Sequence record: MK373774.1
Strand: one strand, 5' to 3'
DNA length: 64,000 bases
From: Escherichia phage vB_EcoM_WFL6982
Part shown: positions 2,934-5,587 of the stretch, piece after piece
Numbering within the stretch: the stretch's first letter is position 1
Layout of the letters: every line of letters begins with the position of its first letter
Notes under the pieces: model-generated
Seen by the model: the letters and a program-made list of their open reading frames with translations, nothing else
What the model was told of the DNA's origin: nothing
Database searches by the model: none
Translations under genes and position numbers: made by a program

Positions 2934-3239
2934 TTAGCACAACGCAGAAGACGAAACCCAAGCACCTTCAGTAATAACGTAACCATTACCTTCACGCTTA
3001 ACATCGCCACCATTATTTTCAATTTCATCTTTCATCCACTGGGATACGATTTCACCCTTAGGATAATAAGTACGACCGCTACCATAATCACCTACAGAAA
3101 ATGATACGGCATATTGGTCTGCGATCTTTGTTGCTTCTTCTTCGATACGTTCAGCTTGATTCAGAAGTTTATAAATTGCATCTGAAGCGGATTTGGCATC
3201 ATTAAACTCTGGTACTTTAATTTCAATAATCTTACTCAT
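2934..3239 (-). CDS. small protein, C-terminal GWVSSSxxC family member
   Basis: 101 aa; TKIADQ..YGSGRTYYPKG and C-terminal GAWVSSSALC. Confidence 0.55.
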   Translation of the reverse strand: MSKIIEIKVPEFNDAKSASDAIYKLLNQAERIEEEATKIADQYAVSFSVGDYGSGRTYYPKGEIVSQWMKDEIENNGGDVKREGNGYVITEGAWVSSSALC

Positions 3240-3595
3240 TTTCTACATTCCTTAATAAAGTTTTCGATTGTTTCATTTTCACGTCTAGCTAGGAGTTCAT
3301 TATAACTAATCATTTGAGAAGCGTAAACCTTTTTATTTTTCTTGTTATGGTTTATAAAATCGTAGTAAAAATAGACTACAGTACAAAAGGATGCGATGGA
3401 TGCAAAGGCTTGGGTATACCGTAAGTCCTGCCATTGGTCTGTGAATCCACCAGTGTTCCCTATAAATCCTAACACAACGCCATCAATAAGAAATCCAACT
3501 AATCCAAAGGCAAATCCCATGCCGGCGCTCATGATAAAAATTAAAATATTCTCACCAAGAGAAGGCCATACGGTTAAGAGTTGAGGCTTTTGCAT
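3236..3595 (-). CDS. small membrane protein
   Basis: Hydrophobic stretch MSAGMGFAFGLVGFLIDGVVLGFIG in the translation; overlaps neighbours by a few nt. Confidence 0.5.
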   Translation of the reverse strand: MQKPQLLTVWPSLGENILIFIMSAGMGFAFGLVGFLIDGVVLGFIGNTGGFTDQWQDLRYTQAFASIASFCTVVYFYYDFINHNKKNKKVYASQMISYNELLARRENETIENFIKECRK

Positions 3596-3960: not shown

Positions 3961-4010
3961 TGCCTTGCGGCAACCTTGTCGGGGTTCCACCTGCTAAGGC
4001 AAGTGTTTGT

Positions 4011-4102
4011 ACGAAACGCCGGGATTTGAACCCGGTTATTAAGTAGTTGACGCTACTCAATATTTTTAAAAGGCCATATCTCGACCATATCCGAACGTTC
4101 CG
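4011..4102 (-). ncRNA. tRNA-like structured RNA candidate (not a canonical tRNA)
   Basis: Minus strand has a canonical T-arm CCGGG-TTCAAAT-CCCGG and a 7-bp acceptor-like pairing 92 nt apart, but D and anticodon arms do not fold canonically. Confidence 0.25.
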
Positions 4103-4270
4103 TCAAAAACGCTACTCGGCTTACGGCAAAGATATTTCCTCGAATCGATAATTCTGTGCGCCGTTTCTGCTGTGATGTAAGGGGATATTAACAAATCGTA
4201 AAGATTTATTAAGACCAGTCCTTACTCAGGGAACATCAGTCCGACGACTTACCGGTAGCGACCCGGCTTC

Positions 4271-4615
4271 TTATTTTGACATATCATCAATTTGCTCTCG
4301 ACGCCGACGCCATAGATTAATCGCTTCATTAACACATTCGGCGTTTGGTATATGACGGCAATAATATAATGATTCGCGTTTCTGGAACCGATGTTGCAAC
4401 GGGATTTCGTTTAAAAGGTCTTTACGGTCAAAGTATTCAAAACTAGTTAACCCAGAACGATTTTTAAGAAACTTCCAATGTCCGAATTCATTTTGAAAAT
4501 AGACATAATCAGCATGCTGATACAGCGAATTAATTAACCTATCGGAAATAACTGTTTCACGTTCGTTAAAATAAAATGTTAAGTCATGAACTACCAGATA
4601 AATATTGCCTTTCAT
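4271..4615 (-). CDS. hypothetical protein
   Basis: ORF taken from internal Met MKGNIYLVVHD so that it does not overlap tRNA-Arg. Confidence 0.5.
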   Translation of the reverse strand: MKGNIYLVVHDLTFYFNERETVISDRLINSLYQHADYVYFQNEFGHWKFLKNRSGLTSFEYFDRKDLLNEIPLQHRFQKRESLYYCRHIPNAECVNEAINLWRRRREQIDDMSK

Positions 4616-4633: not shown

Positions 4634-4709
4634 TGGTGCCTCTAGAAAGATTTGAACTCTCACCATTAACCTTAGAATGATTATATGCTATCCATTACAC
4701 TATAGAGGC
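4634..4709 (-). tRNA. tRNA-Arg (anticodon TCT)
   Basis: Hand-folded cloverleaf: perfect 7-bp acceptor GCCTCTA/TAGAGGC, T-arm GAGAG-TTCAAAT-CTTTC, anticodon loop ATTCTAA, encoded CCA; 76 nt. Confidence 0.8.
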
Positions 4710-5366
4710 AATTAAATTATTTACAATATCTTCTTTATAAACTTCAGCATAATGAAGTTCATATATTTCCCATCCTAATGATTTTATAATATCATGGCGT
4801 TCTTTATAATAAGGGGCCAAAATCTTTTTCTTAGGATTGGAGTAATGTTGGTTTCCATTAACTTCAATAATAATCTTTTTATCTATTAAAGCAATATCCG
4901 TGCAATACGCTCGGTTTTTAACCGGTTGGTATTCTTCAATAAATGAAATTCCATTTTCTATTAATTTAGATTTCAAAAATTCACAAGGCACAGATTTAAA
5001 TTTTGTATTTTTCTTCCAAGGATGTTTATCGGGGTTTTCATTCAACCATTTTTTCCGAGCATTAGATATTTTTATTCTAGCTTCCTCAGAGTGTTCTCTA
5101 CCTAATGAAGCGGCTGACAATTTTTGTCTAGTCTCTTCCGAAATTACTACAGGAACACCAGTCTTTTTAGATACAACATACTGGTTTAAATTACCTGAAG
5201 CTATACGTGCTTTATTCATTGCTGCAATGGCTGATTTAGAACTTTCTTTATACAATTCCAATTTAGGGTTGGATTTACACCATCTAGTGTGGTTAGCCAT
5301 CCATCCTTTAGGTTTATTAGAAATATCAAATTCCATATTACAATGTTTACAAATGCTCATTACCAA
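4695..5366 (-). CDS. putative homing endonuclease (zinc ribbon, NUMOD3 repeats, Vsr/DUF559-like C-terminal region)
   Basis: N-terminal CKHC..HTRWC; tandem ISEETRQKLSAA and HSEEARIKISNA NUMOD3-like motifs; C-terminal IIEVNGNQH...SLGWEIYEL; sits where segB sits in T4 as I recall. Confidence 0.6.
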   Translation of the reverse strand: MVMSICKHCNMEFDISNKPKGWMANHTRWCKSNPKLELYKESSKSAIAAMNKARIASGNLNQYVVSKKTGVPVVISEETRQKLSAASLGREHSEEARIKISNARKKWLNENPDKHPWKKNTKFKSVPCEFLKSKLIENGISFIEEYQPVKNRAYCTDIALIDKKIIIEVNGNQHYSNPKKKILAPYYKERHDIIKSLGWEIYELHYAEVYKEDIVNNLIASIV

Positions 5367-5434
5367 TTATCTCCTATAAAATATAGGAGTATTTATTATT
5401 TGGATAGAGCACTTAATTTACTTCGTTTAAATTA

Positions 5435-5506
5435 CTGGCGCACTTGGACTCGAACCAAGATAAAGGAGTTAACAGCTCCCCGTAATAACCTTTATACGAT
5501 GCACCA
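5435..5506 (-). tRNA. tRNA-Asn (anticodon GTT)
   Basis: Hand-folded: acceptor TGGTGCA/TGCGCCA, anticodon arm GGGAG-CTGTTAA-CTCCT, T-arm CTTGG-TTCGAGT-CCAAG; 72 nt. Confidence 0.7.
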
Positions 5507-5512
5507 TTTGTT

Positions 5513-5587
5513 TGGTGACCCTGGCTGGTTTCGATCCAGCTACCTATCAGTTATGAGCTGACAGCTCTCCCATTGAGCTACAGGGCC
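5513..5587 (-). tRNA. tRNA with CAT anticodon (Met, or Ile if lysidine-modified)
   Basis: Hand-folded: acceptor GGCCCTG/CAGGGTC, D-arm GCTC..GAGC, anticodon loop CTCATAA, T-arm GCTGG-ATCGAAA-CCAGC, encoded CCA; 75 nt. Confidence 0.75.

What the first reader, a model, noticed from the sequence alone, without database searches (positions are those of the whole stretch)
4695..5366. Atypical homing-endonuclease-like gene in the tRNA cluster, overlapping tRNA-Arg
The 223-aa ORF has an N-terminal Cys/His cluster (CKHC...HTRWC), two tandem NUMOD3-like DNA-binding motifs, and a C-terminal region (IIEVNGNQH ... ERHDIIKSLGWEIYEL) resembling Vsr/DUF559-type endonuclease domains. It lacks GIY-YIG or HNH signatures. 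Its last five codons and stop lie inside the first 15 nt of tRNA-Arg. It occupies the slot where T4 carries segB, as I recall, suggesting independent mobile-nuclease insertion at the same hotspot.
Basis: partly seen in the sequence, partly recalled or inferred. Interest (0 to 1): 0.6.

Follow-up and report, generated by a model that had tools for sequence, protein, structure and literature searches.

The report
Mobile Vsr-like nuclease carrying tRNA-Arg
The gene is a selfish "homing" nuclease of the rare Vsr-like (EDxHD) type that has invaded the tRNA cluster of a T4-like coliphage, bringing its own replacement tRNA-Arg gene, and its relatives in many other phages also sit beside tRNA genes.

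Summary
Window 4695-5360 (-) encodes a 221-aa protein; the true start is the ATG at 5360. Its last four codons and stop lie in the first 15 nt of tRNA-Arg(UCU). The window is Escherichia phage vB_EcoM_WFK (Mosigvirus).

The gene is in 22 of 50,697 phage records, while its flanks match 846. Empty-site relatives have tRNA-Met directly followed by a different tRNA-Arg. In WFK that tRNA-Arg is replaced by a cassette: tRNA-Asn, leader, nuclease gene, foreign tRNA-Arg allele. The cassette is 99.4-99.9% identical in six further sequenced carriers whose flanks are far more diverged (70-85% identical in ELT1). One phage carries a dead chimeric tRNA-Arg, one a frameshift, and at least two (G2285, AV115) carry deletions.

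In 60 distinct metagenomic viral loci, 48 relatives lie within 300 nt of a tRNA and 27 beside tRNA-Arg(UCU).

T4 segB occupies the same slot. This is a new member of a known kind. The cleavage site is untested.

The parts
4695..5360 (-). Coding sequence of the free-standing Vsr-like (EDxHD-type) homing endonuclease candidate. It is 221 aa and is annotated in GenBank as WFK_00135, 'hypothetical protein'.
   Evidence: ORF; annotation; 131 homologues; dN/dS 0.06-0.25; structure model.
5280..5351 (-). N-terminal C-x2-C-x15-H-x3-C zinc finger (residues 4-27), modelled as a beta-beta-alpha fold. It is the presumed sequence-reading DNA-binding module.
   Evidence: Alignment: homologue P0033 has a true C2H2 spacing, and some homologues carry two fingers or an HTH instead. 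The AF2 secondary structure has pLDDT ~95 here. The Rhizobium-phage homologue gives zf-C2H2 Pfam hits. The best non-self BFVD match is named 'C2H2-type zinc finger'.
5049..5147 (-). Two tandem NUMOD3-like helical repeats (about residues 72-104).
   Evidence: Pfam NUMOD3 gives E 3.2e-3 with two stretches, below the gathering score. The model has helices at 75-85 and 92-108. NUMOD3 is recorded for homologues.
4698..5042 (-). C-terminal Vsr-like / DUF559-type nuclease domain. Family-invariant residues are H113, W115, K120, S123, P125, C126, K130, E143, D155, E166, N168, G169, H172 and Y173. The motif is NPDKHPWK...PCE..K...EE...D-I...IEVNGNQHY...YY.ERHD.
4634..4709 (-). Cassette-borne tRNA-Arg(UCU) allele with a T4-type D-arm. 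It replaces the resident Mosigvirus tRNA-Arg and is 57% identical to it.
   Evidence: ARAGORN; Rfam 57.6 bits; comparison with moha and NBG1. This allele (>=85% identity) occurs only in the 11 records that also carry the nuclease gene.
4695..4709 (-). Overlap of 15 nt. tRNA nucleotides 1-12 encode A-S-I-V, and nucleotides 13-15 (TAA in the D-loop) are the stop codon.
   Evidence: The same register is seen in LilPanda and PSD2001 and in two distant relatives next to other tRNAs (L028, L023).
5390..5397 (-). T4 late-promoter-like octamer AATAAATA. Orthologues have the perfect TATAAATA.
   Evidence: Leader alignment. TATAAATA occurs 18 times in the window against 8.3 expected.
5371..5389 (-). RNA hairpin CUCCUAUA-UUU-UAUAGGAG. 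Its 3' arm contains the Shine-Dalgarno sequence (AGGAG, 5371-5375).
   Evidence: Folds; the same stem is reported. The Acinetobacter and Providencia orthologues occlude the initiation region through different pairings, weakly in Acinetobacter (z -0.97).
5435..5506 (-). tRNA-Asn(GUU), part of the imported island. It is absent from the two empty-site Mosigvirus genomes examined and is 100% identical to the tRNA-Asn of Gelderlandvirus Salmonella phages.
5513..5587 (-). tRNA-Met(CAU). It is the left homology arm and lies inside the near-identical tract.
4634..5587 (-). The whole island of near-identity, i.e. the mobile cassette plus the co-converted tRNA-Met.
   Evidence: There are 1-6 mismatches in 954 nt across six other carriers. 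The same comparisons give 12-67 mismatches in the adjacent 284 nt on the right and 4-45 in the adjacent 313 nt on the left.

Best explanation
The gene encodes a free-standing homing endonuclease of the Vsr-like (EDxHD) class.

Protein architecture. A C2HC zinc finger and two NUMOD3 repeats read a long DNA site. A C-terminal Vsr-fold domain cuts the DNA. The candidate catalytic residues are D155, E166, N168 and H172, with E143 and D190 as further candidates.

Location. The gene sits in the tRNA cluster of a Mosigvirus inside a roughly 0.95-kb cassette. In transcription order the cassette is: tRNA-Asn; a leader with a late promoter and a hairpin that hides the ribosome-binding site; the nuclease gene; and a foreign tRNA-Arg(UCU) whose first 15 nt supply the last four codons and the stop of the nuclease ORF.

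Inferred mechanism. In a mixed infection the enzyme cuts the genome that lacks the cassette, in or next to its resident tRNA-Met/tRNA-Arg segment. The break is resected and repaired from the cassette-bearing genome. Recombination uses tRNA-Met on one side and the sequence just downstream of tRNA-Arg on the other. The resident tRNA-Arg is therefore replaced by the cassette and its own divergent tRNA-Arg, which is presumably uncut.

Inferred expression. Read-through transcripts of the tRNA operon fold the hairpin and are not translated. Late transcripts start inside the 5' arm of the hairpin and are translated.

What is shown: the fold and domain composition; the gene's sporadic presence; the exact replacement junctions; the island of near-identity; decayed and deleted copies; and the family-wide tRNA association.

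What is inferred: DNA cleavage itself; the position of the cut; the immunity of the cassette allele; and the promoter/hairpin control.

For: Active site. The spacings D155-x12-N168-G-x2-H172 mirror Vsr D51/H64/H69 and I-Bth0305I D196/N208/H213, where Asn also replaces Vsr His64 (PMC3239194; Vsr sequence). These residues are invariant in 37 homologues.

Mobility.
- The gene is in 22 phage records while its flanks match 846.
- Empty sites have tRNA-Met, then 3-6 nt, then the resident tRNA-Arg. Homology resumes exactly at CCAACTTTAAGTGAGG.
- The cassette is 99.4-99.9% identical in six carriers. In the most diverged one, ELT1, the flanks are only 70-85% identical.
- A second allele (dS about 2) occupies the same site in DCP548. 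It left a chimeric tRNA-Arg without an acceptor stem.
- PTE-Eco05 has a frameshifted copy.
- G2285 and AV115 are deletion derivatives.
- In Jiaodavirus the gene is a clean insertion between tRNA-Leu and tRNA-Arg.
- In Gaprivervirus the cassette replaced tRNA-Arg plus a small ORF.
- The cassette-type tRNA-Arg is found only together with the nuclease gene.

Family context. Of 60 distinct IMG/VR loci, 57 have a tRNA within 1.5 kb, 48 within 300 nt, and 27 have tRNA-Arg(tct) within 300 nt. Seven of 8 metagenome loci show the same, as do Rhizobium and Citrobacter phages.

Selection. dN/dS is 0.06-0.25.

Regulation. TATAAATA followed by a structure that occludes the translation initiation region recurs in the orthologues examined (WFK itself has AATAAATA, and the Acinetobacter fold is weak, z -0.97); the pairings differ in the Acinetobacter and Providencia copies.

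Precedent. SegB, in the same T4 slot, cuts tRNA genes and drives inheritance of the tRNA region (PMC2330249).
Against: No cleavage assay exists, and no target site can be read from sequence alone.

Sequence-only comparisons with solved structures found nothing: phmmer and a profile search of the PDB gave no significant hit, and hhalign against E. coli Vsr was not significant. Assignment to EDxHD therefore rests on a predicted structure plus a manual motif alignment.

The last Asp of the EDxHD motif (D190 here) is not invariant in the family.

The resident Mosigvirus tRNA-Arg and the Jiaodavirus tRNA-Arg are only about 57% identical. One enzyme family would have to tolerate very different targets, or cut elsewhere.

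The WFK-type copy has a one-base-off late promoter (AATAAATA) and a long 10-nt spacing between the Shine-Dalgarno sequence and the ATG, so it may be weakly expressed.

An island of identity could in principle arise from ordinary recombination around a single old insertion, without nuclease-driven homing.
Confidence: 0.78

Rival explanations
1. It is a domesticated, phage-beneficial nuclease rather than a purely selfish one. Like SegB in phage T6, it would make breaks in the tRNA cluster that promote segmental amplification or allele swapping of tRNA genes. That would help the phage escape host defences that cleave tRNAs.
For: SegB, a different nuclease family in the same slot, drives tRNA-gene amplification that defeats Septu, and segB is statistically linked to tRNAs (PMC13096335). 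This family is also tightly tRNA-linked. The cassette delivers a new tRNA-Arg allele and a tRNA-Asn. Purifying selection acts on the protein.
Against: No amplification is seen in any of the carriers examined. The gene is absent from the great majority of related phages. Frameshifted and deleted copies exist, and some have also lost tRNA-Arg, which argues against a strong benefit. This rival does not exclude homing; it adds a benefit to it.
Confidence: 0.12
2. It is an RNA-acting enzyme: a RAP-domain-like endoribonuclease or RNA-binding protein that takes part in processing the phage tRNA precursor transcript.
Against: The RAP score is below the gathering cut-off (23.8 versus 24.2). The top structural match by two methods is a DNA homing endonuclease. 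The N-terminus carries zinc-finger and NUMOD3 DNA-binding modules typical of homing endonucleases. A processing factor would not be absent from the two cassette-free relatives examined (moha, NBG1), which still encode tRNA-Met and tRNA-Arg, and from most related records. It would also not sit in a sharply bounded island of identity.
Confidence: 0.04
3. It is a vertically inherited accessory gene, an ancient resident of the tRNA cluster lost in most lineages. It would have no nuclease-driven mobility and could be an inactive relic.
For: No cleavage data exist. The late promoter is imperfect in the WFK-type copy. Several lineages show loss.
Against: The cassette has 1-6 mismatches per 954 nt, while the adjacent flanks of the same genomes differ by up to 24%. 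Two alleles with saturated synonymous divergence occupy the same Mosigvirus site. The gene occurs in five or more genera and even another phage family, always next to different tRNA neighbours. All family-invariant residues are intact and dN/dS is 0.06-0.25.
Confidence: 0.05
4. It is a Vsr-type mismatch-repair nicking enzyme, as some automatic annotations name its relatives ('very-short-patch-repair endonuclease').
Against: Vsr His64 is replaced by an invariant Asn, and the Vsr FWH segment with the intercalating Trp68 is absent (PMC3239194). hhalign against Vsr is not significant. Sequence-specific DNA-binding modules are fused to the N-terminus. No dcm-like partner gene is nearby.
Confidence: 0.01

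Closest known systems
I-Bth0305I, prototype of the EDxHD (Vsr-like) homing endonuclease family (PDB 3R3P; Taylor et al. 2011, PMC3239194)
   Different: I-Bth0305I is encoded in a group I intron in recA, whereas this gene is free-standing in a tRNA cluster. The N-terminal modules differ: a C2HC zinc finger plus NUMOD3 here, NUMOD2/HTH-like there. No sequence-level match was detectable with HMMER. The motif EVNGNQH is specific to this subfamily.
SegB of phage T4 (GIY-YIG free-standing homing endonuclease; Brok-Volchanskaya et al. 2008, PMC2330249)
   Same: It occupies the same genomic slot, immediately upstream of tRNA-Arg in the tRNA cluster. It has the same lifestyle: it is absent from close relatives, and its homing carries neighbouring tRNA genes along. 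The segB family is also statistically linked to tRNA genes.
   Different: The nuclease fold is unrelated; no GIY-YIG domain is present here. SegB is separated from tRNA-Arg by 5 nt, whereas this ORF ends inside the tRNA. SegB relatives show no isotype preference, whereas this family is most often beside tRNA-Arg(UCU).
Hef of phage U5 (free-standing homing endonuclease replacing mobE between nrdA and nrdB; Sandegren et al. 2005), assigned to the Vsr-like family by Taylor et al. 2011
   Same: It is a free-standing, Vsr-like homing endonuclease in T-even-type phages. This is reported in PMC3239194 and PMC2988022.
   Different: It sits at a different locus and has a different target (nrdB). I could not obtain a Hef sequence, so relatedness was not tested. 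BLAST with the nuclease domain found no T-even Hef-type genes.
DUF559 (PF04480) / RAP (PF08373) / REase_MTES_1575 domains and E. coli Vsr
   Different: Those are mostly stand-alone or differently fused domains: bacterial proteins of unknown function, organellar RNA-binding proteins and a mismatch nickase. None has this zinc finger plus NUMOD3 architecture or this tRNA-cluster, mobile context.

Membership tests
EDxHD (Vsr-like) homing endonucleases | Catalytic domain with the Vsr-endonuclease fold | tested here: met
EDxHD (Vsr-like) homing endonucleases | Composite active-site motif E-D-x-H-D, equivalent to Vsr D51, H64, H69 and D97 | tested here: inconclusive
   Manual alignment proposes E143, D155, N168 (the x position, Asn as in I-Bth0305I N208), H172 and D190. 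The first four are invariant in 37 homologues, but D190 varies. hhalign against Vsr was not significant and aligned only the RHD region. No residue-level structural superposition was available.
EDxHD (Vsr-like) homing endonucleases | [quoted passage not shown] | tested here: met
   NUMOD3 gives two stretches at E 3.2e-3, below the Pfam cut-off. It is recorded for homologues and in the Mizar GenBank note. The module type differs from I-Bth0305I (NUMOD3 here, NUMOD2-like there).
EDxHD (Vsr-like) homing endonucleases | Site-specific double-strand cleavage of the allele that lacks the gene | not testable with these tools
   This needs an in vitro cleavage assay or a phage cross.
Free-standing homing endonuclease genes of T4-like phages (operational definition) | Sporadic presence among close relatives, with identifiable empty sites | tested here: met
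   The gene is in 22 records and its flanks match 846. Empty sites were found in moha, NBG1, Merci and P896.
Free-standing homing endonuclease genes of T4-like phages (operational definition) | Gene plus short co-converted flanks are much more similar between carriers than the surrounding genome | tested here: met
   There are 1-6 mismatches in 954 nt, against 12-67 in the adjacent 284 nt and 4-45 in the adjacent 313 nt. The end points of the identical tract vary between carriers.
Free-standing homing endonuclease genes of T4-like phages (operational definition) | Signs of the invasion, decay and loss cycle | tested here: met
   A frameshift in PTE-Eco05; a chimeric dead tRNA-Arg in DCP548; deletions in G2285 and AV115.
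Pfam DUF559 (PF04480) | Whole-protein score at or above the gathering cut-off | tested here: met
   21.3 bits against a cut-off of 20.6, which is marginal.
Pfam RAP (PF08373) | Whole-protein score at or above the gathering cut-off | tested here: not met
   23.8 bits against a cut-off of 24.2.
GIY-YIG homing endonucleases (SegB-like) | GIY-YIG catalytic domain | tested here: not met
   No GIY-YIG family appears in Pfam even at E<=10. Structural matches are to the Vsr/PD-(D/E)xK fold.
HNH endonucleases (the label in two GenBank records of orthologues) | HNH (beta-beta-alpha-metal) catalytic motif | tested here: not met
   No HNH Pfam hit. The 'HNH endonuclease' labels in PP889504 and PQ885451 appear to be automatic mis-assignments.
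Vsr mismatch-repair endonuclease | His64, His69 and the intercalating Trp68/Trp86 | tested here: not met
   An invariant Asn stands at the His64 position and there is no FWH segment. hhalign was not significant.

The most novel reading that the evidence does not exclude
The nuclease gene and the tRNA-Arg(UCU) gene fused to its 3' end form a self-propagating 'tRNA replacement module'. The nuclease destroys the resident tRNA-Arg gene of a co-infecting phage and installs a divergent, fully functional allele, sometimes with extra tRNAs such as tRNA-Asn.

This would give the recipient phage tRNAs that host anticodon nucleases or other tRNA-targeting defences do not recognise. The selfish element would then persist because it diversifies phage tRNA sets. 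A whole clade of Vsr-like nucleases would have specialised on tRNA-Arg(UCU) genes for this trade.

A further twist follows from the stop codon lying inside the tRNA. RNase P processing of the tRNA would leave a stop-less nuclease mRNA, coupling tRNA maturation to silencing of the nuclease.
Probability: 0.15. Interest if true: 0.7.

Novelty: new member of a known kind. Interest (0 to 1): 0.5.

Why it matters
It gives a well-supported function to a gene annotated as 'hypothetical protein' in most of the public phage genomes that carry it, and mislabelled 'HNH endonuclease' in two.

It shows that two unrelated nuclease families have independently colonised the same few base pairs upstream of tRNA-Arg in T4-like phages: GIY-YIG SegB in T4, and a Vsr-like enzyme here.

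It reveals an uncharacterised subfamily of the little-studied EDxHD homing endonucleases. About 80% of its metagenomic members sit within 300 nt of a tRNA gene, most often tRNA-Arg(UCU).

It provides natural before-and-after pairs for working out how phage tRNA clusters are shuffled: empty sites, two independent invasions, a chimeric tRNA scar and two kinds of deletion. That question has become topical since SegB was shown to remodel tRNA loci to evade bacterial immunity (PMC13096335).

The enzyme would also be a second, easily assayed representative of a nuclease family with only one biochemically characterised member.

Tried and rejected
(1) Sequence-only searches against solved structures. 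phmmer with the protein returned only chance-level hits (best E 0.26), and a 37-sequence profile returned none. The family assignment therefore had to come from the predicted structure.

(2) Profile comparison with E. coli Vsr (hhalign). It gave a probability of 0.5% and aligned only the RHD/GW segment. It was not usable for mapping catalytic residues, so I aligned the D...NG..H segment by hand.

(3) Comparison with Hef of phage U5. The paper (PMC1275590) is not held and I had no sequence. tblastn with the nuclease domain at E<=0.05 found no Hef-type genes in T-even phages. The relation to Hef remains open.

(4) The idea that tRNA-Asn is a resident Mosigvirus gene. I rejected it. In Mosigvirus, tRNA-Asn was found only in cassette carriers and in three non-carriers; the two of these examined (G2285, AV115) are deletion derivatives of the cassette, and AV109 and AV114 were not examined.

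(5) The idea that the overlapped tRNA-Arg is the resident gene into which the ORF happens to run. This is true in Jiaodavirus. I rejected it for this window, where the tRNA-Arg is a foreign allele.

(6) A sigma-70 promoter scan of the locus. Matches were not above shuffled expectation, so host-type promoters give no information here.

(7) Looking for a shared target sequence across the empty sites of Mosigvirus, Jiaodavirus and Gaprivervirus. Only generic tRNA features are shared, so no recognition site can be proposed.

(8) The TTG start at 5366. I rejected it in favour of the ATG at 5360.
Full report
**Identity of the window and check of the observation**

The 3.5 kb around the finding is 100% identical to Escherichia phage vB_EcoM_WFK (MK373775.1; Straboviridae, Mosigvirus). 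Window position equals record position minus 64000.

The ORF finder lists 4695..5366 on the minus strand, 223 aa from a TTG. ARAGORN finds tRNA-Arg(tct) at 4634..4709, tRNA-Asn(gtt) at 5435..5506 and tRNA-Met(cat) at 5513..5587, all on the minus strand. Rfam confirms all three as tRNAs. ORF and tRNA-Arg therefore overlap by 15 nt (4695..4709).

Two small corrections apply.
- The start is the ATG at 5360, giving 221 aa. Every orthologue begins at that ATG and the TTG is not conserved in frame. GenBank annotates the same start (WFK_00135, 'hypothetical protein').
- The 15 nt are four sense codons (GCC TCT ATA GTG = A S I V) plus TAA.

From here on, residues are numbered from the ATG.

**What the protein is**

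Pfam gives only weak hits:

| Family | E-value | Bits | Cut-off |
|---|---|---|---|
| RAP | 4.5e-5 | 23.8 | 24.2 |
| DUF559 | 2.5e-4 | 21.3 | 20.6 |
| NUMOD3 (two stretches) | 3.2e-3 | 17.8 | 20.4 |
| REase_MTES_1575 | 0.017 | 15.6 | 38.2 |

Nothing from the GIY-YIG or HNH families appears. PHROGs places the protein in families of unknown function, with a weak hit (1.6e-5) to a family named 'homing endonuclease'.

A search of 5.8 billion proteins found 131 relatives. Several are named 'very-short-patch-repair endonuclease' by JGI. An alignment of 37 of them (A2) shows a conserved C-terminal core: NPDKHPWK...KF.S.PCE.LK...F.EE...D-I...IEVNGNQHY...YY.ERHD..GW. The invariant residues are H113, W115, K120, S123, P125, C126, K130, E143, D155, E166, N168, G169, H172 and Y173.

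The N-terminus is variable:
- one or two C-x2-C-x12-15-H-x3-C/H zinc fingers (P0033 has a classical C2H2 spacing);
- helix-turn-helix domains in some members;
- nothing in others.

This kind of module swapping is typical of homing endonucleases.

AlphaFold2 with this alignment gives a confident model (mean pLDDT 88.5). It has a beta-beta-alpha finger (pLDDT ~95), a helical NUMOD3 region (pLDDT 70-90) and an alpha/beta C-terminal domain (pLDDT 93-98).

- Foldseek independently finds 3r3p as the only PDB entry with E<=0.001.
- In the viral structure library the best non-self matches are uncultured-phage proteins named 'C2H2-type zinc finger', 'DUF559 domain-containing' and 'Homing endonuclease protein [Rhizobium phage]'.

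Sequence-only searches of the PDB found nothing, and hhalign against E. coli Vsr was not significant. By hand, the segment D155-x12-N168-G-x2-H172 lines up with Vsr D51-x12-H64-G-x3-H69 (Vsr sequence) and with I-Bth0305I D196/N208/H213. Taylor et al. report that Asn208 occupies the place of Vsr His64 (PMC3239194).

The 'atypical' family already has a name.

**The gene is mobile, and it brings a tRNA-Arg with it**

Distribution. The gene's DNA is found in 22 of 50,697 phage records: 9 at >=99% identity, two at 76-81%, and the rest at 66-70% in Klebsiella, Enterobacter, Providencia and Acinetobacter phages. tBLASTn adds Rhizobium and Citrobacter phages. The flanks match 846 records.

Empty sites. 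Two cassette-free Mosigvirus genomes were examined, moha and NBG1. They have tRNA-Met followed after 3-6 nt by tRNA-Arg(tct).

The replacement. Aligned with WFK, homology stops at the CCA end of tRNA-Met and resumes exactly at 'CCAACTTTAAGTGAGG', the CCA end of tRNA-Arg. Between those points moha has a spacer and a tRNA-Arg body. WFK has tRNA-Asn, a 68-nt leader, the nuclease gene and a different tRNA-Arg. The two tRNA-Arg genes are only 57% identical. The WFK allele has the D-arm of T4 tRNA-Arg (TAGTGTAATGGATAGCA), while the resident allele is of another type. The WFK-type allele (>=85% identity) occurs in exactly the 11 records that carry the nuclease gene and nowhere else.

Island of identity. 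Across six other carriers the 954 nt from 4634 to 5587 differ from WFK at 1-6 positions. The adjacent 284 nt on the right differ at 12-67 positions, and the adjacent 313 nt on the left at 4-45. In ELT1 the flanks are 70-85% identical and the cassette 98-100%. The last flank mismatch lies at a different position in each genome. This is the signature of recent spread into diverged genomes with short, variable co-conversion tracts.

**Independent events and decay**

- DCP548 (Mosigvirus) carries a second allele of the gene at the same site: 78% amino-acid identity, synonymous divergence saturated (dS about 2), dN/dS 0.07. It has no tRNA-Asn. Its tRNA-Arg is a chimera: the 5' two-thirds are the cassette type and the T-arm and 3' acceptor strand are the resident type. 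ARAGORN no longer calls it. Rfam matches only model positions 6-65, at 37.6 bits against 71.1 bits for the resident gene, so the acceptor stem cannot form. This is a recombination scar inside the resident tRNA-Arg.
- PTE-Eco05 has a 1-nt insertion that splits the ORF.
- G2285 keeps tRNA-Asn and the leader up to 'TATAGGA'. It then lacks about 1.07 kb: the nuclease gene, tRNA-Arg and most of the next ORF.
- AV115 has a larger deletion. It joins the T-loop of tRNA-Asn to a T-loop-like GGTTCAAATCC in the rnaC-like RNA.
- In Jiaodavirus, Merci has tRNA-Leu, one nucleotide, then tRNA-Arg. LilPanda has the gene inserted exactly between them. Its last four codons and stop are the native tRNA-Arg 5' sequence. 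Its tRNA-Arg is the same type (92% identical globally; 88% by BLAST over the stretch that includes it), with compensated stem changes.
- In Gaprivervirus, P896 has tRNA-Met, 2 nt, a resident-type tRNA-Arg and a small ORF. In PSD2001 the cassette has replaced tRNA-Arg and that ORF, rejoining at the rnaD-like sequence as in T4.

The resident tRNA-Arg is thus the element removed or broken in each of the three replacement events, and the gene abuts it in the fourth, a simple insertion. This is why I place the cut in or next to it. That placement is inference.

**The family as a whole lives in tRNA clusters**

Eight metagenomic relatives were chosen only for diversity and contig length. Seven have a tRNA next to the gene, five of them tRNA-Arg.

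A scan of IMG/VR returned 66 loci, 60 of them distinct:
- 57 have a tRNA within 1.5 kb;
- 48 have one within 300 nt of the gene;
- 31 have a tRNA-Arg within 300 nt, 27 of them tRNA-Arg(tct).

tRNA-Arg(tct) makes up 28 of the 242 tRNAs in those flanks, yet it is the nearest tRNA in 18 of 57 loci. The gene boundaries used for this count are approximate.

The arrangement varies. tRNA-Arg may lie just upstream of the gene, or just downstream and overlapping it. In two distant relatives next to other tRNAs (L028 with Arg-cct, L023 with a cta tRNA) the ORF again ends 15 nt into the tRNA, in the same register. Part of this is forced: tRNAs often read TAA at nucleotides 13-15 and TAG at 8-10, so an ORF running into a tRNA stops quickly.

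Distant homologues in Rhizobium phages of another virus family (Kleczkowskaviridae) also flank tRNA-Arg(tct).

**Expression signals**

All orthologues share a leader, GTGCTCTATCCAAT-TATAAATA-ACTCCTATA..TATAGGAG-(6-10 nt)-ATG.

- TATAAATA is the T4 late-promoter consensus (established knowledge). It occurs 18 times in the window against 8.3 expected. The WFK-type copies have AATAAATA.
- The inverted repeat folds into a hairpin whose 3' arm is the Shine-Dalgarno sequence (-8.8 to -12.6 kcal/mol, z -2 to -3.7).
- The Acinetobacter and Providencia orthologues use different sequences to pair the promoter-proximal segment with the Shine-Dalgarno sequence or the start codon. Providencia gives -14 kcal/mol, z -5.8. 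Acinetobacter is weak, z -0.97.

A late transcript starting about 6 nt after the octamer would lack the 5' arm of the hairpin. From what I know of T4 homing endonucleases (I-TevI, mobE), this matches their delayed-translation control.

**Comparison with known systems**

[quoted passage not shown] SegB cuts tRNA genes, recognises the T-psi-C motif and drives inheritance of the T4 tRNA region (PMC2330249). Its family is statistically linked to tRNAs and can amplify tRNA loci to defeat the Septu defence (PMC13096335).

The present gene is the same kind of element in the same slot with an unrelated nuclease domain. It belongs structurally with I-Bth0305I and, according to Taylor et al., with the T-even Hef nuclease. 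I could not test the relation to Hef.

My literature searches found no description of Vsr-like homing endonucleases in tRNA clusters. One GenBank record (phage Mizar) already notes NUMOD3 and DUF559 for its copy.

**Verdict**

The gene is a new, uncharacterised member, arguably a new subfamily, of the known EDxHD class of homing endonucleases. It has convincing comparative evidence of mobility.

Three features add interest:
- it travels fused to its own tRNA-Arg;
- it replaces the resident tRNA-Arg;
- its whole family is tied to tRNA genes, preferentially tRNA-Arg(UCU).

Cleavage activity, the target site, self-immunity and the regulatory model remain untested.

Noticed in passing
window 4001-4276 (minus strand): This stretch is 93% identical to T4 rnaC plus rnaD, the stable 'species 1 and 2' RNAs. 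The WFK GenBank record instead annotates two small hypothetical CDSs here (WFK_00131 and WFK_00132), which are probably spurious.
   Followed up: partly
L010 (phage DCP548) 2440-2515: A chimeric tRNA-Arg. The 5' two-thirds are the cassette type and the T-arm and 3' acceptor strand are the resident type. The acceptor stem cannot pair, ARAGORN misses it, and Rfam matches only model positions 6-65. It is a recombination scar and leaves that phage without a working tRNA-Arg.
   Followed up: yes
L098 (phage AV115) about 1190-1261; L017 (phage G2285) about 1480: Two different deletions removed the nuclease gene and tRNA-Arg. In AV115 the junction lies between the T-loop of tRNA-Asn and a T-loop-like GGTTCAAATCC in the rnaC-like RNA, and the resulting hybrid is still called tRNA-Asn. 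In G2285 the deletion starts inside the Shine-Dalgarno hairpin.
   Followed up: partly
L003 (NBG1) 4443-4516 and L009 (PSD2001) 3228-3302, compared with window 5513-5587: tRNA-Met also exists as two alleles among these phages. The first ~20 nt are identical and the rest is strongly diverged. Mosaic replacement of tRNA genes may therefore not be limited to tRNA-Arg.
   Followed up: no
L015 (Citrobacter phage CkP1) 2498-3133; L021 2002-2655: These proteins share the zinc-finger plus NUMOD3 N-terminus of the WFK protein but carry a different C-terminal nuclease, with weak hits to Pfam Phage_endo_I. They too sit in tRNA clusters. This looks like nuclease-domain swapping on a common DNA-binding module.
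   Followed up: partly
L015 65-592 (CkP1_0152) and L006 1100-1627 (Providencia QQV88995): T5orf172-domain ORFs, another nuclease-like family, whose 3' ends overlap the 5' end of tRNA-Asn. L015 4642-5136, which overlaps the next tRNA, has a weak NUMOD3 hit. tRNA clusters of T4-like phages seem to collect several nuclease families with the same ORF-into-tRNA arrangement.
   Followed up: partly
L025 2759-3000: The 'spacer' between tRNA-Arg and the called gene P0044 encodes zinc-finger-like sequence (C..C...H...C twice). The called 180-aa product is probably an N-terminally truncated gene call or a frameshifted copy.
   Followed up: no
L034 1009-1339: ARAGORN predicts a tmRNA-like gene (tag peptide AQQQKALIT*) inside a viral tRNA array next to a relative of the nuclease.
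   Followed up: no
L007 5028-5102; L023 3613-3687; L069; L086; L092: tRNAs with a CUA (amber-reading) anticodon, which ARAGORN labels 'Pyl', recur in these phage tRNA clusters. Twice they directly overlap the 3' end of a nuclease relative.
   Followed up: no
L008 (Klebsiella phage phi1_146055) 2488-2511: In this orthologue the D-loop TAA is lost (GTT AAG AGG ATA TAA), so the ORF runs 24 nt rather than 15 nt into tRNA-Arg. This record and PQ885451 label the gene 'HNH endonuclease', which the domain analysis does not support.
   Followed up: partly
L011 (phage F2) and L013 (phage ELT1): Both are filed under Tequatrovirus in their records. F2's flanks at this locus are Mosigvirus-like (90-99% identical to WFK), while ELT1's are more diverged (70-85%). 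F2 and four other records leave the nuclease ORF unannotated.
   Followed up: no
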